The translations under genes and the position numbers were made by a program. DNA of 64,000 nucleotides from Eledone cirrhosa (taxonomy: Eukaryota): contig OZ024742.1 in assembly GCA_964016885.1 (NCBI GenBank), positions 47,306,001 through 47,370,000 on the forward strand, read 5' to 3'. Positions within the stretch are counted from its first letter, which is position 1; every line of letters starts with the position of its first letter. A model generated the notes under the pieces. It saw only the letters and a program-made list of their open reading frames with translations. It was not told where the DNA came from and did not search any database. Below are positions 7,465-61,665 of the stretch, piece by piece.

Positions 7465-10400
7465 ATGACCTCACTCAGAATAGGTAGCATAAATGCGCGT
7501 GGCTTGGGGTCGTCAAGGAAGCAGGGCCACCTGCTCAACGACCTCAGGTCTATAAACATAGGTGTAGTGGCCATCAGCGAGACCAGAATCTCCGAAGCAC
7601 GGGCCTTCGCACCGATCTTCGGCGGCTACGATGTGTACGCATCTCCCAGCCGTCCGGGATCGGGGGGGAGGAGTTACTGTGCTTTTTCGGAGAGGTTTGG
7701 ATCTCGCCATACGGGCCATCTTCCTGGACCCAGAAGGTAAGTTGGTGGTGCTGGACGTGACCAGCGGAGACGGGCAAGCTTTCAGGTTAGTGGCCGTCTA
7801 TGCACCGACAGGAGCAGGGCAGCCTGATTTCTTCCGGCGTCTAGAGACCTTTCTTAGAACGTCCCGCTTTTTAGTGTTAGTGGGCGACTGGAACGGGATC
7901 TTAGATGCACGCTGGGATTGTGTGGAATTAGTGGATAGGGAAGGAGGGTGCAAGAGTCTTACCAACCTGCTCAGGCGTTTTGAACTGTCTGACAGGTACC
8001 GAATGGATTTCCCGAATGTACCAATGTGGACTTGGACAAATCGCATAGGGTCATCCAGATTATATCTAGATAGAGTATTTTGTAGGGAAATAGATAGGTC
8101 TAGCATAGGCTGTCCACAATTCAAGATAGTCAGCTACACGGACCATAAATTCGTGATCTGTGTGCTTGACTTAGATAAGCTTCATAGACGAGGACCCGGC
8201 TACTGGAAGCTAAACGCGTGCTTACCAGCACGCAAGACCTACAGAGACGGGATTAGCGAACTAGTTAAGCGGGCGTTGACGGGGGCCATCGTCAACAACA
8301 AGTCGTGGTTTGCTCTGAAAAGAGCAATTAGAATAGAGTCCATTACATTTAGTAAGGCTTTAGCAATAGAGAAACATAGAGCAGAGGGAGAATTAGTTAG
8401 AAAATTAGACGAGGCGCTTAGCAAAGGCATCGCGACCGACGTACTTGCGGCGAAATGGGCCCTTGACCAATTCTTCAATGCAAAGCACGAAGGCTGCGTT
8501 GTCAGAGCTAGGGTACGTGCTCTCAGACACGAGTGGACGAAAGCAGTTCAATGGGCCCGAGTGGCGGAGGCGCGTCATGACAACAAAGCCACGATCCGGT
8601 ATTTGGTGGACCACGACGGGCGCATGCTACTCGATCCCGGGCAAATGTGTGAAGCTTTTCAGCGACACTTCGCTCAACTGTTCGGGGGCAGTGGCGGGCC
8701 GGTTCGAGGGATGGACTTTAGTGTCTACCTCGACGGACTGCCGCGGCTTACGGCCACTGAGGCGGAGTGTTGCGAAAAGCCGATAACAGCCGATGAAGTA
8801 CGGGAGGCAATAACTGGCTGCACAAGGGGTAAATCGCCTGGTTTGGATGGTCTGCCCTATGAACTTTACGTACAGATGCCAGACTTGTTCGGAGGCCTCT
8901 TGGCGGACGTCTACTGCAACTGGCAACAGAACGGGAGAATTCCCAGCTCTGTGAGCCGAGGAGAGGTGGCGCTGCTGAGAAAGGATCCGAGCATGGGGGA
9001 TAACATAGATAATTTTAGGCCCATCTCTGCTAAACAAAGAGTTCAAGATTTTGGCCAAGGTGCTAGCAAAGAGGTTGGCGCTTGTCGTTGGTGGTCTGGT
9101 GGGAGAGGCACAGACTTGCGCCATTCCCGACAGATCCATCCACGACAACCTTCACCTCATGCGATACATCGTAGAGAGGGTAGCTAGGGAACCTGGTACG
9201 GGTGGGTCTTTGATCAGTTTAGATCAGTCGAAAGCCTTCGATAGGGTCGACCATCGTTACCTAGCGGCAGTCCTGAGGTCGGCTGGCTTTGGGCCCGTCT
9301 TCAGAGGCTGGATCGCTGCCAAGCACAGCGATATCTGCTCTGTAGTGAGAGTGAACGGTCACCTTTCGGAACCGTTCAACATCATGCGCTCGGTCCGCCA
9401 AGGATGTCCCCTCTCGTCCCTATTGTACGTATTGACTCTCGAGCCATTACTGCACAAACTGGAGACGTTGAGGGGGTCCCGCGCGAACTAGGATGCGGAA
9501 GATCCGTGTCAGCTTATGAGGACGATGTCATCGTAGTGGTGTCGAACGCCAAACACATCGAGGCGATCGGCACTACACTAAGAGAATACGCTGGACGGAC
9601 GGACCGGTTAAATTTCTAGGGTTCTGGTTCGGTCCAGACCACCTGACGGACAAAAACTGGGACGTGGTGACGAGCAGGGTGGCTTCTATCACCCAGAAAT
9701 GGGCCGAGAGGAAATAATCCCTGAAAGGTCGAGCAGAGGTGGCTAACGCGTACATCGCGTCCGTCAACTACTACCGCTTGACCGTCGTACCTTGTCCTAA
9801 GCCCCGCCTGACTGCGCTGGAGCGTTTGCTCTTTCGCTTCTTGTGGAAGGGACGCGCTCCGATGGTCAGGCGGTCCATCTGCTGTCAACACCCGCTACCT
9901 GGAGGGCTGGGCATGCCGTGGCTGATGATGCGCAGACACGCGCTCAGGCTACGACATCTCCACCTCTTCCTCGACGGTGATCAGGTGTGGTCGCCGTTTG
10001 CTAGACTCGTTTTTCCCCAGCTCGTCTCCTTGACGGAGCTGCAGTCCTGGGTCAAGCGAAGACCGAGAGGGAGCGCTTGGAGACTGGAATGTCTTCAGGC
10101 GCTCACAGCCCTCGACCGATCGGGCAATGTGATCGGTGGAAACTCCACCTTGGCGTTCTATAGGGGATTAGTGGAGGGGAGGAGCGACGACGTACTTGGA
10201 GAAACTCTGGGCGTCGACGAAAATCAACTAGCCAATCTCTTCGGAAGGTCTTTCGGGCCGGGGCCTATGTACAACTTCCAGAAAAGTTGACCTGGCAGTG
10301 CTACCGAGGAGCTTTGCCAGTTCGGGATAAACTCTACAGGCATGGATGTGCCGTCAGCCGGGCATGTCCGAGATGCGCACAGGGCGACGAAACCCTCCTG

Positions 10401-10781
10401 CACACACTCGTCCAGTGTCCGAGCATTGCTGACTTGTGGGTTTATGTCGAACACCTGCTGTCACGTGTAGGACGGATCCAGCTATCAGCTGAGTCCATCG
10501 TGAGGATTGCCCCGCCCTCTTACTTTAGCCGGGAAGTGCAGGCAGTTTTTATCTGTCTGGTGGCCATGGCGAAAGAGATAGTATGGTGGACACGTTTGAA
10601 AGGGCTGAAGACGATCACTTACCTCTTCGGTGATGCCCTGATTAACTTTTTCAAATTTCATTTGAAAAAGAAAATCAGGGTAGAGAGGGAAGTGCTCTTT
10701 TACCAGCATTGTTTTGAAAGATGGGTGAGAGAAGCAAGTATGGCCCGAATGAATGGGCCTTCTCTGAGTATGAGTCTGTAA
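7465..10781 (+). pseudogene. LINE ORF2: apurinic endonuclease, reverse transcriptase and zf-RVT; frameshifted
   Basis: Motifs SINARGL, VAISET, VAVYAP, VGDWN, YLDRVF, TDH, GPGYWKLN, KSPGLDGLPYE, NFRPIS, SLDQSKAFDRVDH, VRQGCPLS, AYEDDV, GGLGMP and CPRC..DETLLHTLVQC. Frameshifts at ~7660, ~9030, ~9480 and ~10287, an apparent deletion at ~9590, and a stop at ~9716. Confidence 0.93.
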
Positions 10782-11024
10782 ATTAAAGGTGGACAACTGG
10801 GAGAGTACACTTGCCCTGGTGGTTAGGGTCACTGTGGTCTTTTAATGGGCTTTCTCCACAAATGTGCCTCGGAAGTCTCCCCCCTATTGGGGAATTTTTC
10901 TTTGTTATTTTATTACATCCTCTGTTTTTTTTACACGCAGAAATGCCCATTTGTACCGTCCTGTATTGTCCTGTACTGTCCTTAATGTCTACTTTATGTA
11001 AACCCTTGTGGTTAATAAAGAAAA

Positions 11025-11025
<1 letters not shown>

Positions 11026-11083
<58 letters not shown>
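11026..11083. repeat. (ATT)n microsatellite, right flank of the LINE
   Basis: Direct reading. Confidence 0.97.
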
Positions 11084-11084
<1 letters not shown>

Positions 11085-11189
11085 CATTATGTATTTATTT
11101 AATGCTCCGTTCTGTGTGTTCTGTAAGAAGGACTTCCTCCCCTTATTTTGATTATCGAATGCCGAAGCATGTGCTTTATTGCACCAACT

Positions 11190-11640
11190 CCTTTAATTCT
11201 TGCACTTAATCCAGCCTCCACTGTTCCACCACTCGTTGAGAGAGCCCCGAGATACCATCTTCAATAGCGTAATTCCATTCACATGTAAAGTGCCGGCTTC
11301 CTTGAGCGGGCATTAGTCTCAATCTGCGCAGGATTGCTTTTCATTCCGGCCTTGCAGCACTCGGCATCAAGACTATCAAGTGCAAGTTGGTTATCACCCT
11401 CTGTCGAGTTAAGTATCACAATATCTTCTGAAAATTCCAGCCGACTGATTTACACCTGCCAGTCATGATACCACTTCCAACACTATTGCACATGTCAAGT
11501 GCGTTCACGAAAATAAGGAAAAGGAGAGGTGACAGTACACAACCTTGGCAGAGTCCGATTCGCTCATTGAATGGTTTCGATTTAGCACCCTTTATTCGAA
11601 TACAGATACTCGGTCATTCGAAGCCCACCATCGAACCCAT
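11190..11640 (-). mobile_element. RTE-like LINE RT fragment, decayed
   Basis: The minus strand reads CIRIKGAKSKPFNERIGLCQGCVLSPLLFLIFVNAL and later YLGALSTSGGTVEAGLSARIKG. It is similar to 30560-30780. Confidence 0.75.
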
Positions 11641-12685: not shown

Positions 12686-12900
12686 TGGTTTCTGATTTAG
12701 GCACAAGGCCAACAATTTTTGGGAAGAGGAAAGACGACTAAATCAACCCCAGTGTGTTACTGGTACTTTATTTTATCCACACCGTAATGCTGAAAGTTAA
12801 AGCAAACCTCGGTGGGATTTAAACCTAGCACATAAAGAAATGTAGCTGTATGCTACTATGCATGTTGTCCGACGCTCTAGTGATACTGCCAATACACCGC
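12686..12900 (-). mobile_element. tRNA-headed SINE (Nin/Deu-type core), older copy
   Basis: GGCACAAGGCC...ACTGGTACTTTATTTTATC...ACCTCGGTGGGATTT matches the other SINE copies in the window. Confidence 0.8.
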
Positions 12901-19239: not shown

Positions 19240-19284
19240 GAAAATAAACCAAAGAAGCCTTCAATACATCAAAAGTCTTTATTA

Positions 19285-19322
19285 GCCAACAATGTTTCGT
19301 CCTATTAAGGACTCATCAGGGC
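19285..19322 (-). ncRNA. Minimal type I hammerhead ribozyme
   Basis: GCC-CTGATGA-GTCCT-TAAT-AGGAC-GAAA-C-ATT-GTT-GGC; all core positions are canonical. Confidence 0.85.
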
Positions 19323-20077
19323 AAGTAAAGCTATAAGAAGCACTATCGGCCAATACAAGCCAAAAACTAATTTTTTTACTTAACTACTTGTGACACCTAA
19401 GTAAATATATTTGTTTTTGTTTTTCGATTTCCGGTTGATTTTATTTATATTTTTTTACTACCGTGCGTAGTTTCTGTCTGGTTCTTATTCACTTATTCAC
19501 ATATGTCTGTCTACCAACCATGTAATTATGTATACTATACTATGTTTGTTATTTGATATTGAAGTTGTTATATCATATCACTTTATGTAATCGTACTATA
19601 GATCTTAAATATTTACCGATTATTCGATGTACCCTTATGTTAAATTTTGTAAATTCTGTAATATGTTTATATTTTTTATAATTTTTATAATGTTTAGATA
19701 ATATTTATTTATACCAATTGTATAAAAACTCGACCTCCGTCTGTTTTGTTACAACGGTATAGATATTTTTCCAGCACAATATTTTCAACACAATTCAGTT
19801 CTGTATGATATTTTTTTTCTCACCCTGTGGGTAATTTTATATGATTTGTTAAGTTATATGCCAATATATTATAATATTGTTATTATAGTGTTATTGTAAT
19901 ATTTATATTGTTTATGCAAATTGACCGGAGATTATAAATTATATAGTATATTATATATTATATTTTTATTTTTATTCATTTCTTTATCATTTCATACTGT
20001 AAATAATATATGTATTATATTTATATTTAAACTCTTAATAAGTGTTAGTTTGTGTTTGTATTGATGGATATGTGTAT

Positions 20078-20411: not shown

Positions 20412-20449
20412 GCCCTGATGAGTCCTTAATAGGACGAAATATTGTTGGC
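20412..20449 (+). ncRNA. Minimal type I hammerhead ribozyme
   Basis: GCC-CTGATGA-GTCCT-TAAT-AGGAC-GAAA-T-ATT-GTT-GGC. Confidence 0.8.
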
Positions 20450-26576: not shown

Positions 26577-26642
<66 letters not shown>

Positions 26643-26711
26643 AAAAAGAGATGAAATCGAAAATGCAACTGGAGTCTTATTTAAACAAAATATATATATA
26701 TTTATTTGGTT

Positions 26712-26749
26712 CCTTTACCGGTTTCGCAGTTCTTCTGCTTTTCAAAAGG
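26712..26749 (-). ncRNA. Minimal hammerhead, U3-A8 core variant
   Basis: CCTT-TTGAAAA-GCAG-AAGAA-CTGC-GAAA-CCG-GTA-AAGG; palindromic stem III ACCGGT. Confidence 0.75.
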
Positions 26750-26898
26750 TGAGTTGAGATGGAGGGGCTGTGGTTTTCCTCATATGATTCCAGTTCCTCA
26801 GAGAAATAACAACCCAACCAGGAACTGGGCATATCAGAGTATTGACAAAATTATACACCTCAACAACATATGTACTTGTCTATACCACACTAATTCGG

Positions 26899-26953
26899 AC
26901 TGCCTGAAGAGGTCACAGCCAAAGATGGCTGTCACCGAAATATTTATAGCAGT
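26899..26953 (+). ncRNA. Type I hammerhead ribozyme
   Basis: ACTGC-CTGAAGA-GGTcACAGCCA-AAGA-TGGCTGTcACC-GAAA-T-ATTT-ATA-GCAGT. Stem I is 5 bp, stem II is 10 bp, and the triplet is AUA. Confidence 0.85.
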
Positions 26954-29250: not shown

Positions 29251-29436
29251 ATTGATTGGCAGTATCGGTAGAGGGGCGGACGCCATACTTTGACGCATAG
29301 AGTGACTGCTCTTGTCATTCTGAGTTCAAATCTCGCCGAGGTTAACTTTGGCTTTCCTCCTTGCGGGGTCGGCCGATCAAATAAAGTACCAGTAATGCAC
29401 TGAGTAATTACTGGCATTGTGCCAAAAGTAGAAACA
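29251..29436 (+). mobile_element. tRNA-headed SINE (Nin/Deu-type core) with 13-bp TSD
   Basis: Box A TGGCAGTATCGG, box B GAGTTCAAATC, core GCCGAGGTTAACTTTG..CCTT..GGGGTCG..AGTACCAGT. TSD ATTATTTTATATA at 29238-29250 and 29437-29449. Confidence 0.9.
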
Positions 29437-29478
29437 ATTATTTTATATATATATACATAGAGAGAGGGAGAGAGACAG

Positions 29479-29921: not shown

Positions 29922-30780
29922 TGCCCACTTATTTTAGAGAGGCTCGTTGAGGCCGATAACCTAAAACACTGCATTTTTCCTTCCAGAGTGTCCTGTCAGA
30001 AGCAACCGTCTCCAACTGATCAAGCCAAGCATATGGATGTTATCCAGTCATCTTGTATGGGTATACACCTGGGTCTCCTGCCGGTTGGTTTTGCCCGTAA
30101 AATCTATCCAGCGATTCTTTCCTGAGGCATTCTAACCACATGCCCATAGTATGTGATCTCTCATTTCGGAGAAGTAGCAGTGCTACCTGGAGTGACTATC
30201 TGATGTCCGAGTGAGGCACTCTGTCGAGTAACATTACGTCAAATACCCTTCGGATGAAACTCATTTCAGCTTGTATTCACGATTATATTCTTTAGGTTTA
30301 TTACACAAGATTCATATCGAATATCGAATTGAAGATAGCGAGTCTGGCTTCTACCCTTCCTCTGATGATCAAACGCTGAGTCTGGCGCATTATTGTATGG
30401 ATTGGCAGTATCGGTAGAGAGTCAGACACCATGCTTTCCTGAGTTCAAATCCCGCCGAGGTTGAGTTTGCCTTTCATCCTTACGGGGTCGATAAAATAGA
30501 GTACCAGTAATGCACTGCGTAATTGCTGGCCTCCTGCCTAAAGTAGAAACAATTATTGTACCAGATCCTTCAATTATTGCACTTAATTCCATCTCCTACC
30601 TTCCATCTCTCGTGAACACGGCCCAGAGATACGTGAACTCCTCCACCTGATTCAATGGAACTCCATTCACATTTAGAATGCAGTGCGCAGGCTTTCTTGA
30701 GCTAACGAGTGTCTCAGTCTTCGCCTGCATTGATTTTAATTTCAGCCATGCAGCACTCGGCATTAAATCTATACAACTGA
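29793..30780 (-). mobile_element. RTE-like LINE 3' portion ending in a (GAC)n(GAA)n microsatellite tail
   Basis: The minus strand reads LNVNGVPLNQVEEFTYLW... and YGHVVRMPQERIA..LRAKPTGRRPR. The tail is 29793-29920; the element is interrupted by a SINE. Confidence 0.8.
30398..30551 (+). mobile_element. SINE with 9-bp TSD, inserted in the RTE
   Basis: Same family as 29251, with a short internal deletion. TSD ATTATTGTA at 30389-30397 and 30552-30560. Confidence 0.9.
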
Positions 30781-33067: not shown

Positions 33068-34312
33068 GTATGATGTAGTGTATATTAGCTGTGGCATTGC
33101 CACACAACGGATGTGATGCTTGCTTCTATTCATCCGGTATTGAAGTCTAATCAAATCTTCCAATGAATACGGATTTCAAGCGGATTATACGAGTGTGTAT
33201 TCTATCATTTCCAGAATGGGAGAAGACGAAAATAAATGAGTGAACATTATTTTGCTTTTTCCAATTATCAAAAGAAAATTATTTTAATTTCAGCTAGACA
33301 ATGATCTCATGCAACTAAAATGAAACCTCCCATTCTGTCTTTAATCCAAATATTATTTTCTCTATTTTAAGTTTCATCCAGCGTGTGAGTTTTTTTTTCA
33401 TATTTTCGTTAATGTATTTTTGAGTTCCGCATTGAGATTTTATTTTATTTTAGTTATACAGCTTTTCTATTGTGTAAATCTGCTGGTATGAACATTTCTT
33501 AATTAACTTCCGTGAATATTTTTCTCAGCAGTTTGTCTTCAAGACATTTTTCACAAGCCTGAATATAATAAACAAATCTCACCAGATGAAATGTGTCAAC
33601 AGTTTCTTCCTATCATGATAATCGTTATTCAACAAAGGTGAATGAATTATGCGAATAGCAATAATGAAAATGTTTTGGAATACCACCCAGAATACTGTAG
33701 AACAATGTGAAAGGTATTACGAGTTTCATTAGCAAATTGCTAATTTCTATCGTAAAGGCTGTTTTTTCCCACGCAAGCTAACTCTATTAAAAAGGCTACG
33801 TGATTAATTATACGCAACAAATAGGTTCATGTTCATTCCATAAAGGATAGGAAGAAAGCATGTTTGTCAGATGGATGTAAACAAGATGGGGCTGTGAAAA
33901 TAAACATATTACACTGTCTAGAAAGACATACATTTATTTACGATATTCCAGATAAAAGAAAATTTAAATTCATGCACTCGATATTTCAGTAGCTTCTTTC
34001 ATCAGATCTATCAGTTCTTAAATCTTATAGTTCAGCCCATTTGACAGTGTAAAAAGCTGTTTATTCTTACGAAGTATAGGAGGAGAATGGAAAAAAAAAA
34101 ACATTTGCTGTATTTGGTGGCTGAAGCAAAATGTGTACCGCATTATTAGTTAACATTCGCTCAAAATATGGCGTTACATTTTATATGTGCATCTGCACAC
34201 TCACACTCTCAAACATTCACATACACTACACACGCATGTTTCTTATGTGCTGCAAATGTCCATCATTACATTCAAATTTTGCAGTAATACGATACAACAC
34301 TATCTTCACATA

Positions 34313-34488
34313 TAATTGGTTCTAATTTTGGCACAAGGCCAGCAATTATTCCAGTACATTACTGGTACTTTATTTTATCGATCCCATAAGGATGAAAGGC
34401 AAAGTTAACCTCGGTGGGATTTGAACTCAGACTGTAACTCGATGCTACAAAGCATGGCGTCCGTCCCTCTACCGATACTGCCAATCCA
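34313..34488 (-). mobile_element. SINE (same family)
   Basis: GGCACAAGGCCAGCAAT...AAGGATGAAAGGCAAAGTTAACCTCGGTGGGATTTGAACTCAG...CTCTACCGATACTGCCAATCC. Confidence 0.9.
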
Positions 34489-39015: not shown

Positions 39016-40576
39016 AATGGAAAAATGAAACGAAATTTCATTTCTCACTCTTAGTACGGCTGTTACTTAAATATAAGTATGTATACGTACATACATATAT
39101 GTATACAGACGTGCATGTATGTATATATATACATACTACTGTACGTCTGTATACATATATATACATATATATATATCTATATATATTTGGGATGGTCATT
39201 ATGTCGTAATGTCGTTATTTCTTTTCGTGGTGAAGTTTTCGTGTTTGTGCATGCATTTGCGTCTACGCTTTCGTCCCTGTGTATGTGTTTTTCTGGTTGT
39301 CATGTCTATGTGTGTGTGAGTTTTTATCGTTAGCTGTTTTGCTGTCTGTATCTTTTCTTCTCTCTCTTTTCTTATTCTGTCTTCTGATGTTAAGTAGTTG
39401 GCCGTTACTATTCCGCTCGTGTTCTCTGTTTAGGCTGGGACTATTTTCTATTCTGTCGGTGGCGTCAGTAATTTGTTTGAGTGATGCGTTAGTTCTGTAT
39501 GTAGTAGGATCTTTATTTCTAGAGTATCAATTGAATCCACGTGTTCTAATTTGGCATGTTGGTATAGTACTGATGATCTTTTCGTCTCCTTAAGTTCTCC
39601 TTGGTTATTACGAGAGAACTGCATTCGGTGAATGACGTGTTGTATTTATGTCTTTTATATTCTGTTGGATCAGGCATGCGGCTCACATTTCTCATCGTGG
39701 TTATAATGTCCGCTATTCAGATTGCCACTTCTTCTTCTTGGGCATATGTTTTTATTATTAAATTTACACGCATTTCTCTTTAGAGTAGTTTTGATACTCA
39801 TGTACGATCATTTTTCTCACATGCTCTTGTTTTGTGGGTTCTGCATGGCTCTGGTCCCTCCGCTCCATCTTTCCATGGGGGTTTTCTTGGCTATTGAGGT
39901 GATGGTGAGAAGTGTAAGTTTTACATGTCTATTGGGGCATCGCATCTAAGGTTGTACTTATCTAGATATTTCCTATCACACGTAAGTCTGGGGAGGAGGT
40001 TTAGTTCCTCACGGTCAACTCTTCAGAATTCCACATTGCTCTCACTGATCATCTCCACATATTTCTCCACAGCAAAATCAACGTCTATGGGTGGGTATAA
40101 GGTATAAGGATACCACATCCCTGCTGCCTATTACCCTGTTTATCAGGTCGTGGGTGCAGTTGCATGTGTTGATTCTGTTGGCCGACCGAGTTAGTATGGA
40201 AATAGACGAATATAGTACATAGTTAACGGGCAGCAGTATAGATCCAACATATATAATTACGTAACTCAAATTTTAAAATAGTTTTTATTTCAGAAATTTC
40301 AAGCGGTGTGGATTGATTGAAAACTAGTTTTTCCATGATCACTACGATACAATATTCAAAGTACGTCCAGCTCGGATTGCGTGTGGTATGACGATGTAAA
40401 GGCGTACGTTTCACCATGTGTTTGCAAGTTTTCGGTCTTACTACTCACAAATATACACACTTTTTACCCGGTAATTGATGATGCGTTGTCGCAAGGTTTT
40501 TTGATGAGTTCATTGCTACTTTGGTTGATGGATTTTACCCGCTTGCCCATAGAGGAATTCTCGACAAAACATCATA

Positions 40577-40762
40577 TAACTGTTTCTACTTTAGGCACAA
40601 GGCCAGCAATTACCCAGTGCATTACTGGTACTTTATTTTATCGACCCCGTAAGGATGAAAGGCAAAGTCAACTTCGGCGGGATTTGAACTCAGATCGTAA
40701 AGGGACGTAACTATGCTGGAAAGCATGGTGTCCGACTCTCTACCGATACTGCCAATCCACCA
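40577..40762 (-). mobile_element. SINE (same family)
   Basis: Full core and head, highly similar to 58346-58513. Confidence 0.92.
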
Positions 40763-56916: not shown

Positions 56917-57207
<291 letters not shown>

Positions 57208-57242
57208 TGTGAGAAAAACCACAGACCCTCCATCTCAACTCA

Positions 57243-57280
57243 CCTTTTGAAAAGCAGAAGAACTGCGAAACCGGTAAAGG
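57243..57280 (+). ncRNA. Minimal hammerhead, U3-A8 core variant (in pLTR fragment 57204-57350)
   Basis: CCTT-TTGAAAA-GCAG-AAGAA-CTGC-GAAA-CCG-GTA-AAGG, identical to 26712-26749. A mutated third copy lies at 57899-57936 (-). Confidence 0.75.
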
Positions 57281-57347
57281 AACCAAATATATATATATTT
57301 AAAAAAAAAATAAGACTTCAGTTGCATTTTCGATTTCATCCCTTTTT

Positions 57348-57545
<198 letters not shown>

Positions 57546-57565
57546 TATATATATATATATATACA

Positions 57566-57694
<129 letters not shown>

Positions 57695-57783
57695 GTGAGG
57701 CTTTTTTTACAAAATGAAAAATGACCGAGGTGTGCTACACGAGTGAATGTATAAGGAAAAAATATTCGGTAAACTCGGATTAC

Positions 57784-57830
<47 letters not shown>

Positions 57831-58154
57831 AAAAAAAGATGAAACCGAAAGTGCAACTGGAGTCTTATTTTAAAAAATATATATATATTTATTTGGTTCC
57901 TTTAACGGTTTTGCAGTTCTTCTGCTTTTCAAAAGGTGAGTTCAGATGGAGGGTCGGTGGTTTTTCTCACATCTGCTTGGTCTTTGAATGTTACTTGTTT
58001 ATATGGAATAAGTGGCTCGAAATGCCAGGTTTTTCGAGAAGTAATTTGATTGGTTGTTCAATAATTATAATAAATTTCGGGCCAGTTCGCGTTACAAAGT
58101 TCTTTAAACAAGGGGGGGGGGGGGCGTCACAGGTTGTTTTTTCATATATGAGTG

Positions 58155-59030
58155 TTTGAATTGCTTTTTACTTAAAAAAACAAAAAAGGGGGCTGACGAA
58201 GGCTTTTTTTTAATAAACGTAATTTGATTGGTTATAAATGAAATTATGCTGTCACGTGAACAAGTTTTCATTAAATTTTCGTGCCCTTATTTGGAAATCC
58301 ATTCTGTAGCCTTTTTAGAGAATTTTATGATAAGTAAAAGATAATTGTTTCTACTTTAGGCACAAGGCCAGTGCATTACTGGTACTTTATTTTTATTGAC
58401 CCCGTAAGGATGAACGGCAAAATCAACCTCGGCGGGATTTGAACTCATATCGTAAAGGGACGTAACTATGCTGGAAAGCATGGCGTCCGACCCTCTACCA
58501 ATACTGCCAATCCAAAGATAATGGTCAAGAGAATGGGATGGGAGAATTGTTCTGGTTCAGTGAATATGGTTAGTTTGCTGGGGTGTCAGAATTCAGATTT
58601 TCTATTGAATACAGAAAGTAAAGATATGTATGTTTATTTGTGTACTTGTGTGTGTGTGTGTCTGTCTGTGTGTTGTGTGTGTGTGTGTTGTGTGTGTGTG
58701 TTTGAATTTCTTTTTACTTAAAAAAAGGGGCTCACGAAGGCTTTTTTTTAATAAACGTAATTTGATTGGTTATAAATGAAATTATGGCTGTCACGTGAAC
58801 AAGTTTTCATTAAATTATTTTCGCGCCCTTATTTGGAAATCTATTCTGTAGCCTTTTTAGAGAATTTATGACAAGTAAAAGATAATGGTCAAGAGAAATG
58901 GGATGGGAGAATTGTTCTGGTTCAGAGAATATGGTTAGTTCGCTGGGGTGTCAGAGTTTAGATTTTCTATTGAATAAAGAAAGTAAAGATATGTATGTTT
59001 ATTTGTGTGCTTGTGTTTGTGTGTGTGTGT
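58155..59030. repeat. ~370-bp tandem duplication in the PLE 3' region (58155-58700 with SINE; 58701-59030 without)
   Basis: Direct comparison of the two copies. Confidence 0.9.
58346..58513 (-). mobile_element. SINE with 9-bp TSD AAAGATAAT
   Basis: TSD at 58337-58345 and 58514-58522; the empty site is visible in the duplicate at ~58878-58886. Confidence 0.93.
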
Positions 59031-59512
59031 GTATTGGAAGATGATTCTATTAGTAGAAATGGGGGAGAGAGTTGTGTGATTGTGTATATGGGTGTTATGT
59101 GTGTATGGGAGTATGTTAAGATGGAGAGAATATATATTTTGTGTGTGTGTATATATGTGTGTAGGAAAGTGAATCTATTAGTAGAAATGGGGGAGGGAGT
59201 TGTGTGTTTGGGTGTGTGGATTGTTATGTATGTGTATGGGTGTTATGTGTGTGGGAGTATGGTTAGCATGTTAAGATGAAAAGAATATATATATATATTG
59301 TGTGTGTGTGTAGGAAAATGATTCCTTTAAGAATATTTTTGAATTAACATATTTTCCTTACTTATTCGTATTTATCCTGTTGTATTGTCAGTGCAAACGT
59401 ATGTTAAGGTTTATTTAGTTCGGGTTTTTATTTTCTAAAGTAGAAGGTATTATGTGTGTGTGAATGTGTCTGTTTGGATGGTTAGCATGTTCTGGTGTTA
59501 ACATAATGTATA

Positions 59513-61665
59513 TTAAACCATATTTAATGCTGGTCTATATTTTTGAATAAACATATTTTCCTTATTTATTCGTATTTGTTCTGTTGTATTGTTAGCGCAA
59601 AGGTAAAATGGGAAGACTTGGAATTTAGGTGTCTTATTACTTGCGCAAATGTCTAGATGTGCGCTTAGTCGTATCTGTCTCGTGGTTGGATCTCGTAATT
59701 GTTGGCGATGAACTGTCATTCTGTTTCTGAGTGTGAGTTTAGTTTGTCCTATATAATCTTCATTGCATCCTTTACATTTAATGGCATAAAGCAGATTTTT
59801 TGATGAGCAAGTGAAGTAATTTTTTACAGTAAAATTCTGTCCTGATTTAAATGTATACGTGTTGCCTTCAATGAGGTGAGTGCAGGTTCCACAATTAGAG
59901 CGACCGGATTTTTTGACACTTGGTTGTGGGTTTGTGGTAGGTAATTTGGCATTGGTGTGTAATGTTTTCAGTGATTTCGCTTGTCTTTTGCTTTTGATTA
60001 TTTTGTGTGTTTCAAGGGCCTTTTTTCATTCTTGGGTTTTGTTTTAGTAGTGGGATGTTCTTGTGAATAGTGTTGTAAGCTTCCGCATTTCTTGGATTGT
60101 GTGTTGAGATATATGATAGAATATTGGACGTACCTTGAATTTGTTTCTGTTTTCGTAATTCATCAATGCCCTTTCTATTCCATAATTTATTAGTAATAGT
60201 GGGCACTCTCTTTTGAGTAGAATTTCCTTTAATTCTTGAAGTCTTTTATTTCGCGTTTCATAATTGGAGACAATTGTGCAAATTCTTCTTGCAAGGTTAA
60301 AAGGAATGTTCGTCTTCGTGTGCTTTGGATGGTTGGAGGTGAATAGCAGGTATTAAGATGTCCAGAAATGGAAGTTGATCTTGGCTGTATTCCATTGTGA
60401 ATTGGATGTGGTTATTGATGGCGTTTATTAAGTTTTTGAAATCCTTCAGTTGGTCGAGTGTGAGGGACCAAAGCATGAGACAATCAACCAAGTAGCGTTT
60501 CCAATTCTCTGATAAAAATTTGTGGAAGTTCAATCCATATTTTGATTTGGACTGTTCATATATCTGGACTTCTAAGTATGCCATGACTAAGTTGGCATAA
60601 GTTGGAGCGGCTTTTGTACCCATCGTAGTCCCCGATATCTGCTTGTAAGAACTGCCATCGAAATCAAAAAAGTTGTTCTGTAAGATGAAATTTAATCCCT
60701 CGGTTATGAAGTTTTTTTCTATTCTGTCAGGTCTCTCATTGGGATATTTCTCTAGCCAGAATCCTATTGTTTCTAGTCCGTATTGGTGTGGGATCGTTGT
60801 GTAGATATTCACTACATCGAAAGACACAATAATAGTGTCGTTGTTGACATGTTTGGGGAGGTGGTTTAAGAGGTCCAGATCGTCTCTTACAAGGCTTGGT
60901 ATGTGTTTGAGAATTGATTTTAGTAGTATGTCTATATAAAGTTGCTCAGTCTGTGTGTTTCACATTGTGGGCCCGCTACAATTGGTCTTAATTTAAGGTC
61001 TGTGGGGGTATTCTGTGTTTACGCAGGCTGAGGTGGATTGTTTACAGGCATCGTTAATTATTTTACACTTGTGGATCTTCGGAAGTCCGTAAAGGTTGCT
61101 GGTTTTGTATTCAAAATGTGTTAAATAATCGTGTTCCTTTTTAGTTAGGTCTTCCTGGTATCGATAAATAAGTGTGTTTAATCTGGTCATTGTTTTTGAT
61201 TGCTGGTAGATTTTTACTCTTTCATAGTAATTAGTATTTTGTAAGAGAGAGAACATAGAATTTTTATATTTTTCAGCCTCCATAATAACAACAGTACTTC
61301 CCTTGTCCGCTTCCTTAATTATAATGTACGTATTGTTTTTTAGTTCATGGATAATCTCCCATTCCCTTCTACTCGTGTTGGGTTTGGGTTTAGGTTGCGG
61401 TAGTTCATGGTATGGGAAGGTAGCTATGTGGTCACAACATTTGTCCAGAACTCTGTTTCTAGCTTTTGTTGGGTTGTAGCTGCTTTTATTCCGTACAATT
61501 GATTCGTCGTTATTCTCCTTGCCAAAGAATTCCTCTGTGAGACGTAATTTTCTACAGAAGTGTGAGATATCGTCATTTATCTCATTTGGGTTAGAGTATT
61601 GTGGTGTTGGTGTAAATTTCAGCCCTTTGGAGAGAATTTTTACTTGTTGGGCTGGGAGAAATTAA
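59513..61665 (-). pseudogene. PLE polyprotein: RT, zinc linker and GIY-YIG; frameshifted
   Basis: LSKGLKFTPTP, IIIKEADKGSTVVIM, LYGLPKIHK, SFDVVNIYTTIPH, QISGTTMGTKAAPTYANL, WKRYLVD, LPFLDI, FTCSSKNLLYAIKCKGCNEDYIGQTKLTLRNRMTVHRQQ, RINKENMFIQKYRPALN. Confidence 0.93.

What the first reader, a model, noticed from the sequence alone, without database searches (positions are those of the whole stretch)
57243..57280. Penelope-linked hammerhead with compensatory U3-A8 core (UUGAAAA instead of CUGANGA)
Seen: CCTT-TTGAAAA-GCAG-AAGAA-CTGC-GAAA-CCG-GTA-AAGG occurs identically here and at 26712-26749(-). A third copy at 57899-57936(-) keeps the same UUGAAAA and lies on the sense strand at the 3' end of the 59.5-61.7 kb PLE. 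Established: C3 and G8 form a tertiary Watson-Crick pair in the active HHR, and U3-A8 preserves it. Inference: the double change is fixed in this family rather than decay. Standard CUGANGA searches would miss it. The self-complementary ACCGGU stem III suggests dimer-dependent cleavage.
Basis: partly seen in the sequence, partly recalled or inferred. Interest (0 to 1): 0.75.

Follow-up and report, generated by a model that had tools for sequence, protein, structure and literature searches.

The report
Penelope hammerhead, known U3-A8 variant
This is a real hammerhead-shaped RNA motif, predicted to cut itself only slowly and only as a pair, carried by thousands of copies of a young jumping gene; its swapped U-A core pair is fixed in the family but already published, and most copies were likely made from RNA that the motif had not cut.

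Summary
Observation confirmed: the 38-nt motif is identical at 57243-57280(+) and 26712-26749(-). The third copy keeps UUGAAAA but has lost G12 and the stem III palindrome. U3-A8 is fixed: 6,452 of 6,478 exact-flank genomic copies, none C3-G8. Sister families with 50-57% identical proteins share it around different stem II sequences.

The motif lies in the pseudo-LTR of a young, (TA)n-targeting, Neptune-like Penelope element, about 39-76 nt after a predicted transcription start. It is not new: U3-A8 hammerheads, with the same UUGAAAA core, were published for Schistosoma Penelope elements (PMC4209133). This scan also noted U3-A8 before, in this genome and in others.

Added here: of 97 copies chosen without regard to the ribozyme, 85 run through the cut site, 44 stop at the predicted start and 3 at the cut. 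U3 is predicted to pair with A17 and cover the cut site. The ribozyme is probably slow, dimer- or protein-dependent, and not needed for most insertions. Cleavage is untested.

The parts
57243..57280 (+). Type I minimal hammerhead motif, U3-A8 core; predicted cut after A17 at 57276
57204..57352 (+). Solo short insertion of the family, from the predicted transcription start (A at 57205, 72 nt before the cut) to the first 3' end, inside (TA)n
57353..57689 (.). (TA)n-rich tract between the two tail-to-tail copies; typical flank of the family
57899..57936 (-). Third hammerhead copy in the 3' pseudo-LTR of the long element; G12 and stem III palindrome mutated, probably inactive
57690..59512 (-). 3' UTR / pseudo-LTR with long tail; TATA-like box at about 57998-58003, predicted start at about 57974
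59513..61661 (-). 5'-truncated, frameshifted RT + Cys linker + GIY-YIG reading frame (ORF2) of the Penelope-like element
26712..26749 (-). Second, identical hammerhead copy
26639..26785 (-). Solo short insertion holding copy 2; begins at the same predicted start, ends in (TA)n

Best explanation
The motif is a type I minimal hammerhead with a family-fixed U3-A8 core pair in the pseudo-LTR of a young Penelope-like retrotransposon; it likely cuts only slowly, likely needs a second copy (and perhaps the element's protein) to form stem III, and most genomic copies were likely reverse-transcribed from RNA it had not cut. Shown: the sequence, its fixation, its place in pLTR-ORF1-ORF2-pLTR units of 4.7-5.0 kb, two 3' ends about 64 nt apart joined to (TA)n, and 5' ends piling up 64-75 nt before the cut site. 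Inferred: the pile-up marks the transcription start (TATAAAA 30 nt and CCAAT 79 nt upstream, initiator-like CCAGAT). Reverse transcription would start 78 or 142 nt downstream of the cut, cross the uncut ribozyme and run off the 5' end, giving 150-215 bp solo or head-to-head copies such as the flagged one. Predicted: ACCGGU pairs only between two copies (double hammerhead), and U3 can pair with A17 and close the cut site, as is proposed for C3-G17 in minimal hammerheads. Occasional cleavage may process tandem or read-through transcripts.
For: Fixation: 6,478 exact-flank copies, 16 not U3, 10 not A8, 0 C3-G8; 75 of 75 full motifs among copies picked by a downstream anchor have U3 and A8. Loose pattern: 23,767 hits against 249 for the reversed control; C-G 105, C-A 193, U-G 181, about 23,288 U-A by subtraction. 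Sister families with ORFs 57% (L059) and 50% (L033, L066) identical keep U3-A8 with compensated stem II. Direct pLTR-ORF-pLTR units in 2 of 20 loci with an intact ORF2, 5' pLTR alone in 1 more. 5' ends of 97 copies: 30 further upstream, 44 at -75..-64, 11 at -63..-3, 3 at -2..+2, 9 at +3..+20. Promoter motifs. Fold predictions: intramolecular stem III probability 0, intermolecular 0.92-1.0, dimer 7.5 kcal/mol below two monomers, U3:A17 0.46-0.56. Literature: PLE minimal hammerheads are inactive as monomers and weak as dimers (PMC4209133); an anole PLE hammerhead cuts only with protein present, and uncut RNA is the main template in vitro (PMC11167929); the C3-G17 trap (PMC3884650).
Against: No cleavage or RNA data for this family. 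The transcription start rests on breakpoints and consensus motifs only; a predicted hairpin at the same place could also stall the enzyme or favour inversion. Junctions at the cut site outnumber those at one control position (about 67, from 42 of the 100 listed of 160, versus 13 of 22), and breakpoints are denser just 3' of the cut than just 5' of it, so some templates may have been cut. That stretch is A/T-rich, though, and the junctions there are ambiguous. The loose pattern demanded ACCGGU, so it cannot show that the palindrome is conserved. The older subfamily has only a 3-bp stem I (A at 2.4 in 31 of 75). Fold predictions are secondary structure only.
Confidence: 0.7

Rival explanations
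1. An efficient dimer ribozyme: two copies in one transcript cut cleanly after GUA and release or circularise unit-length element RNA, which is the normal template.
For: The dimer fold is favoured in prediction. Direct repeats 4.7-5.0 kb apart exist (L129, L138). There is a modest excess of junctions at the cut site, including short duplications that begin there (L129, L188, L194). The 30 of 97 long copies could come from religated circles. U3-A8 hammerheads are reported active in vitro (PMC3088659 citing another paper).
Against: 44 of 97 copies stop at the predicted start upstream of the ribozyme, which neither a cut RNA nor a cut-to-cut circle contains as an end; only 3 of 97 stop within 2 nt of the cut. 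U3:A17 pairing is predicted in the dimer too. Published PLE dimers cleave poorly.
Confidence: 0.17
2. A non-cutting fold: the motif descends from a hammerhead but is kept as a protein-binding, dimerisation or template-positioning element in the 5' UTR, and U3-A8 only preserves shape.
For: Templates are mostly uncut. Hammerhead mutants did not affect insertion by the anole PLE in vitro. No distal stem I or loop-loop contact is predicted. A related motif with A13 changed was seen in three copies at two loci (L123/L124, L132).
Against: All catalytic-core letters (U4, G5, A6, A9, G12, A13, A14, A15.1, U16.1, H17) are the majority state in the family. The sister families also show them, although the search pattern demanded most of these letters. 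PLE hammerheads tested so far do cut, if weakly.
Confidence: 0.11
3. Decay or chance: a canonical hammerhead degraded at positions 3 and 8 in a few copies, or a chance resemblance.
For: None found; only 2 of the 100 listed C3-G8 hits resemble this family.
Against: 99.6% U3-A8 in 6,478 copies; single changes are rare and about equally frequent at both positions, as neutral decay after insertion predicts; U3-A8 is shared by diverged families.
Confidence: 0.02

Closest known systems
U3-A8 minimal hammerheads of Cercyon PLEs, Schistosoma mansoni (Cervera and De la Pena 2014, PMC4209133; I read parts 1-2 of 4 of the text and parts 1-2 of 3 of the supplement)
   Same: Type I, in the pseudo-LTR, U3-A8 core; Fig. 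S3 row S. mansoni(4) has the same UUGAAAA; mostly single or opposite-strand copies; predicted to work as dimers.
   Different: Here stem III is a 6-nt palindrome rather than 2 nt, stem II is 4 bp with no extra base after A9, H17 is A, and copies are nearly identical (young family). The host element has a Cys linker and an upstream ORF.
PLE hammerhead variants with a small palindromic helix III (Aedes, Drosophila, shrimp, rotifer; same paper)
   Same: Palindromic helix III, short helix I, dimer-type architecture.
   Different: Those listed have C3-G8 cores.
Natural U3-A8 hammerheads (Perreault et al. 2011, PMC3088659; section 8 and passages read)
   Same: Same 3-8 covariation, stated to be active in vitro on the basis of an earlier paper that I could not open.
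   Different: No link to Penelope elements in the section and passages I read.
PAc, Poseidon element of the green anole (Frangieh et al. 2024, PMC11167929; parts 1-2 of 4 read)
   Same: Hammerhead at the pLTR/ORF junction, two internal reverse-transcription starts that give a tail, AT-rich targets, uncut RNA as main template.
   Different: C3-G8 core and a single ORF that starts inside the ribozyme. Here the first ATG is 168 nt after the cut and the tail is about 64 nt rather than 30-40.
Neptune/Nematis clades of EN+ PLEs (Craig et al. 2021, PMC8557442; passages read)
   Same: C-terminal GIY-YIG, CX2-5CxxC linker, microsatellite targets, inverted 5'-truncated partner, tail on one end.
   Different: Clade placement by RT tree was not done, so Neptune versus Nematis is open.

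Membership tests
Type I hammerhead ribozyme | Core N3 U4 G5 A6 N7 N8 A9 / G12 A13 A14 with a Watson-Crick 3-8 pair | tested here: met
   U3-A8 in 6,452 of 6,478 copies; each core letter in 73-75 of 75 copies
Type I hammerhead ribozyme | Stem II starting G10.1-C11.1, and stem I closed by the two ends | tested here: met
   4-bp stem II, pair probability 0.9-0.95 in short contexts and lower in longer ones; stem I 4 bp, 3 bp in 31 of 75 copies
Type I hammerhead ribozyme | Stem III stable in a monomer | tested here: not met
   Intramolecular probability 0; forms only between two copies. Usual for PLE hammerheads
Type I hammerhead ribozyme | A15.1-U16.1 pair and NUH triplet | tested here: met
   GUA; A17 in 75 of 75, but A17 is complementary to U3
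Type I hammerhead ribozyme | Match to an Rfam hammerhead model | tested here: not met
   No hit at the three sites among 150 of 158 rows shown
Type I hammerhead ribozyme | Site-specific self-cleavage | not testable with these tools
   Genomic breakpoints inconclusive
Minimal hammerheads of Penelope-like elements | On the sense strand within pseudo-LTRs flanking the ORF | tested here: met
   Direct flanking pair in L129 and L138, 2 of 20 loci; a 3' sense copy in most others
Minimal hammerheads of Penelope-like elements | Palindromic helix III / loop 3 | tested here: met
   ACCGGU; each position 72-75 of 75 in copies picked without it
Minimal hammerheads of Penelope-like elements | Extra unpaired base between A9 and G10.1 (common, not universal) | tested here: not met
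   A9 is followed directly by G10.1; published rows without the extra base exist
EN+ Penelope-like element | RT followed by C-terminal GIY-YIG in one frame | tested here: met
   P0001, 775 aa: RVT_1 at 295-441 (E 1.3e-6), GIY-YIG at 682-772 (E 7e-6)
EN+ Penelope-like element | Inverted 5'-truncated partner and optional 3' tail | tested here: met
   Inverted partners in many loci; two 3' ends, 48 long and 38 short of 86
Neptune/Nematis clades | CX2-5CxxC linker between RT and EN; (TA)n targets | tested here: met
   C-X4-C-X2-C just before the EN in P0001; ends joined to (TA)n
Neptune/Nematis clades | Placement in the RT phylogeny with reference elements | not tested
   No named reference PLE proteins among the 120 homologues listed
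Non-autonomous retrozyme | Non-coding, head-to-tail tandem units of a few hundred bases | tested here: not met
   The family has many open 775-aa frames; its short copies are solo or head-to-head

The most novel reading that the evidence does not exclude
The U3-A8 swap plus A17 is a built-in brake: U3 pairs with A17 and shuts the cut site until the element's own protein or a partner ribozyme opens it. This lets a very successful retrotransposon copy thousands of uncut 5' leader RNAs into DNA while cutting only tandem transcripts, with the 6-nt palindrome acting as a family-specific pairing code.
Probability: 0.15. Interest if true: 0.6.

Novelty: new member of a known kind. Interest (0 to 1): 0.27.

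Why it matters
The core variant itself is in print, so the headline claim adds only a large new family. The useful part is that this young, intact, high-copy family records where reverse transcription stopped. That record suggests in vivo what was seen in vitro for one lizard element: the hammerhead is usually uncut in the template. What PLE hammerheads are for is an open question (PMC8557442 says their function is unclear), and this family offers intact ORFs, a predicted transcription start and a specific prediction (A17C should speed cleavage) to test it.

Tried and rejected
Rfam gave no hammerhead hit at the three sites. Sequencing runs: no RNA holder listed; contigs of four runs of unrecorded kind only confirmed the two 3' ends and the 3' bias. 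A sharp 'fossil cut mark' at the cleavage site was tested and is inconclusive: about 67 junctions against 13 at a single control position, but the cut-site count also takes in breaks at +1 and +2, and 9 of 97 sampled copies break at +3..+20. A raised mutation rate at position 17 (58 of the 100 listed hits are point changes) had no matched control, and 75 of 75 sampled copies keep A17, so it was dropped. I could not polarise U3-A8 against C3-G8 on a tree: no close C3-G8 family with an ORF was in the fetched loci, and the 47%-identical element in L265 showed no hammerhead downstream. The C3-A8 repeat that turned up (L081-L084) has GC-rich flanks, no PLE ORF nearby and no clear stem I, and was set aside. 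The main C3-G8/ACCGGU repeat (L073-L080) lacks a good stem II and was not resolved. Two key papers were not held: Lunse et al. on PLE dimers and Przybilski and Hammann 2007 on 3-8 exchanges, so U3-A8 rates come second-hand and a U3:A17 test there cannot be excluded. Literature searches: hammerhead + U3-A8 gave 1 paper, hammerhead + C3U + A17 gave 0, hammerhead ribozyme + retrotransposon + cephalopod gave only Craig 2021. A sequence look-up in earlier scan notes found nothing. The script timed out and that crashed; both were rerun.

Full report
1. Observation. The 38-nt motif lies at 57243-57280(+) and, identical, at 26712-26749(-). A third copy at 57899-57936(-) has two mismatches; shuffles give none. 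A descriptor with free positions 3 and 8 parses it as a type I hammerhead: 4-bp stem I, U3 U4 G5 A6 A7 A8 A9, 4-bp stem II, GAAA, the palindrome ACCGGU and A17. The third copy has A instead of G12 and a broken palindrome. It lies in the 3' end of a frameshifted, 5'-truncated RT/GIY-YIG element at 59513-61661(-). The flagged copy is a separate insertion of about 148 bp in a (TA)n tract, on the opposite strand. Rfam shows no hammerhead at these sites in the 150 of 158 rows listed.

2. Is U3-A8 fixed? Yes. With positions 3, 7 and 8 free and 29 flanking letters exact, the genome (3.0 Gb) holds 6,478 matches. Sixteen differ at 3 (9 C, 4 G, 3 A, all with A8), ten differ at 8 (3 G, 4 C, 3 U, all with U3), and none is C3-G8. 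That pattern favours the youngest subfamily, so I also used a loose one: 23,767 hits against 249 for the reversed control, with C-G 105, C-A 193 and U-G 181, leaving about 23,288 U-A by subtraction. Most of the C-G hits are one unrelated repeat; 2 of the 100 listed resemble this family, about what two independent changes would give (my estimate, about 1.5). In copies chosen only by an anchor downstream of the ribozyme, 75 of 75 complete motifs have U3 and A8 (97 copies sampled, 22 of them without a full ungapped motif).

3. It is older than this family. Other repeats in the genome carry U3-A8 with ACCGGU but a different stem II (GAUG/CAUC, GAUGG/CCAUC, GCAU/AUGC). Two of them follow PLE frames that are 57% (L059) and 50% (L033, L066) identical to this family's protein. 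Among repeated hammerhead-like motifs in the fetched loci, found with no constraint on positions 3, 8 or the palindrome, the states were C3-G8 or U3-A8. The exceptions were variant copies that I had fetched on purpose and one low-complexity pair. The loose genome pattern demanded ACCGGU, so it says nothing about conservation of the palindrome.

4. The element. A 267-aa RT query returned 144 scored matches at 97-100% identity, many in open frames of 775 aa, so the family is young and probably still competent (inference). Of 20 loci with an intact ORF2, two (L129, L138) show pLTR(hammerhead)-ORF1-ORF2-pLTR(hammerhead) units of 4.7 and 5.0 kb, and one more (L134) shows the 5' half; most others have a 3' sense copy, often with an inverted partner. 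ORF1 (400-401 aa in L129 and L134, no Pfam hit) starts 168 nt after the cut site in L134 and overlaps ORF2 in the -1 frame at a UUUUUUA heptamer. ORF2 has RT, a C-X4-C-X2-C linker and GIY-YIG, which are Neptune/Nematis marks in PMC8557442 (passages); no tree was built. Copies end at either of two points, 78 and 142 nt after the cut, joined to (TA)n. This is the 'tail' that PMC11167929 ties to two internal reverse-transcription starts.

5. What the 5' ends say. I sampled 97 copies from the start of contig C1, in and around the first 100 places listed of 12,331 anchor matches. Relative to the cut site, 30 extend more than 75 nt upstream, 44 stop at -75..-64, 8 at -63..-35, 3 at -34..-3, 3 at -2..+2 and 9 at +3..+20. 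Head-to-head pairs contribute two rows each, so rows are not all independent. The pile-up sits 30 nt below TATAAAA and 79 nt below CCAAT, at CCAGAT, so I read it as the transcription start (inference; a hairpin at the same place is a rival). If so, these cDNAs crossed an uncut ribozyme in a linear RNA, since neither a cut RNA nor a cut-to-cut circle has that end. The flagged copy is exactly such a product. Following a lead from an earlier scan note (e1-8643110), I tested for breaks at the cut itself. By my hand count, 42 of the 100 listed of 160 hits are junctions (about 67 in all), against 13 of 22 at position -6. The cut-site pattern also captures breaks at +1 and +2 and borders an A/T tract, so this is at most a weak sign of occasional cutting.

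6. Folding. Predicted monomer: stems I and II only, stem III probability 0. Predicted dimer: the double-hammerhead topology through ACCGGU, 7.5 kcal/mol below two monomers. In both, U3 pairs with A17 about half the time. The matching C3-G17 pair is the proposed reason why G17 blocks minimal hammerheads, and tertiary contacts relieve it (PMC3884650, passages); no distal contact is predicted here. The C3/G8 double change is predicted to form another hairpin that removes stem II. These are secondary-structure predictions only.

7. Comparison with what is known. Cervera and De la Pena 2014 (PMC4209133) report a U3-A8 core in S. mansoni Cercyon PLEs, about 1,300 hits with a dedicated descriptor; their Fig. 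S3 lists a PLE-linked row with UUGAAAA. They found no monomer activity and low dimer activity for a minimal PLE hammerhead. Perreault 2011 (PMC3088659) first reported natural U3-A8 and cites in vitro activity. Frangieh 2024 found an anole PLE hammerhead that cuts only with protein and is dispensable for insertion in vitro. Two primary papers could not be opened and may already cover U3-A8 rates, PLE dimers with 6-nt palindromes or the U3:A17 pair. Earlier scan notes, unreviewed, reported U3-A8 PLE hammerheads in this genome and others; none matched this sequence.

8. Verdict. The residual interest is the genomic record of uncut templates and the testable U3:A17 brake. Interest 0.27.

Noticed in passing
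L129:3815-5020 and L034:4734-4850 (window 59513-61661 is the truncated relative): The family has a 400-aa ORF1 overlapping the RT frame in the -1 frame at a UUUUUUA heptamer followed by a predicted hairpin, which suggests programmed -1 frameshifting. The same heptamer precedes the RT frame in sister family L059. PMC8557442 Fig. 1 mentions ORF1 with a frameshift in some PLEs.
   Followed up: partly
window 20412-20449(+) and 19285-19322(-): Inverted pair of canonical C3-G8 hammerhead motifs from another repeat family; Rfam HH9 hit at 19265-19335, E 0.0034.
   Followed up: partly
window 26899-26953(+): Canonical C3-G8 hammerhead-like motif with a long stem II, in a repeat that abuts copy 2 head to head; the repeat recurs in at least 10 fetched loci.
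   Followed up: partly
L011:55-1000, L077:712-1180: C3-G8 hammerheads with an ACUAGU palindrome repeated head to tail about 465 bp apart, like retrozymes. Their stem II letters parallel those of U3-A8/ACCGGU families.
   Followed up: no
L062-L066: Sister family with U3-A8 and a U-U mismatch at the base of stem II, a variation that PMC3088659 describes as tolerated.
   Followed up: partly
L132:9120-9235, L124: Related motif with its own flanks and a covaried stem I (UUU/AAA), in which A13 is C in all three copies seen.
   Followed up: no
window 58149-59032 and 40576-40759, 34312-34488, 29254-29447, 30388-30556, 12749-12896: The 3' UTR of the long copy has a local duplication around a 170-190 bp repeat that recurs elsewhere in the window.
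   Followed up: no
window 7568-11209(+): Fragments of a non-LTR element with an AP endonuclease and zf-RVT domain.
   Followed up: no
L123-L124: A 3.9-kb insertion with inverted ends is repeated in tandem, giving two same-strand hammerheads around an RT frame that lacks a full ORF1.
   Followed up: no
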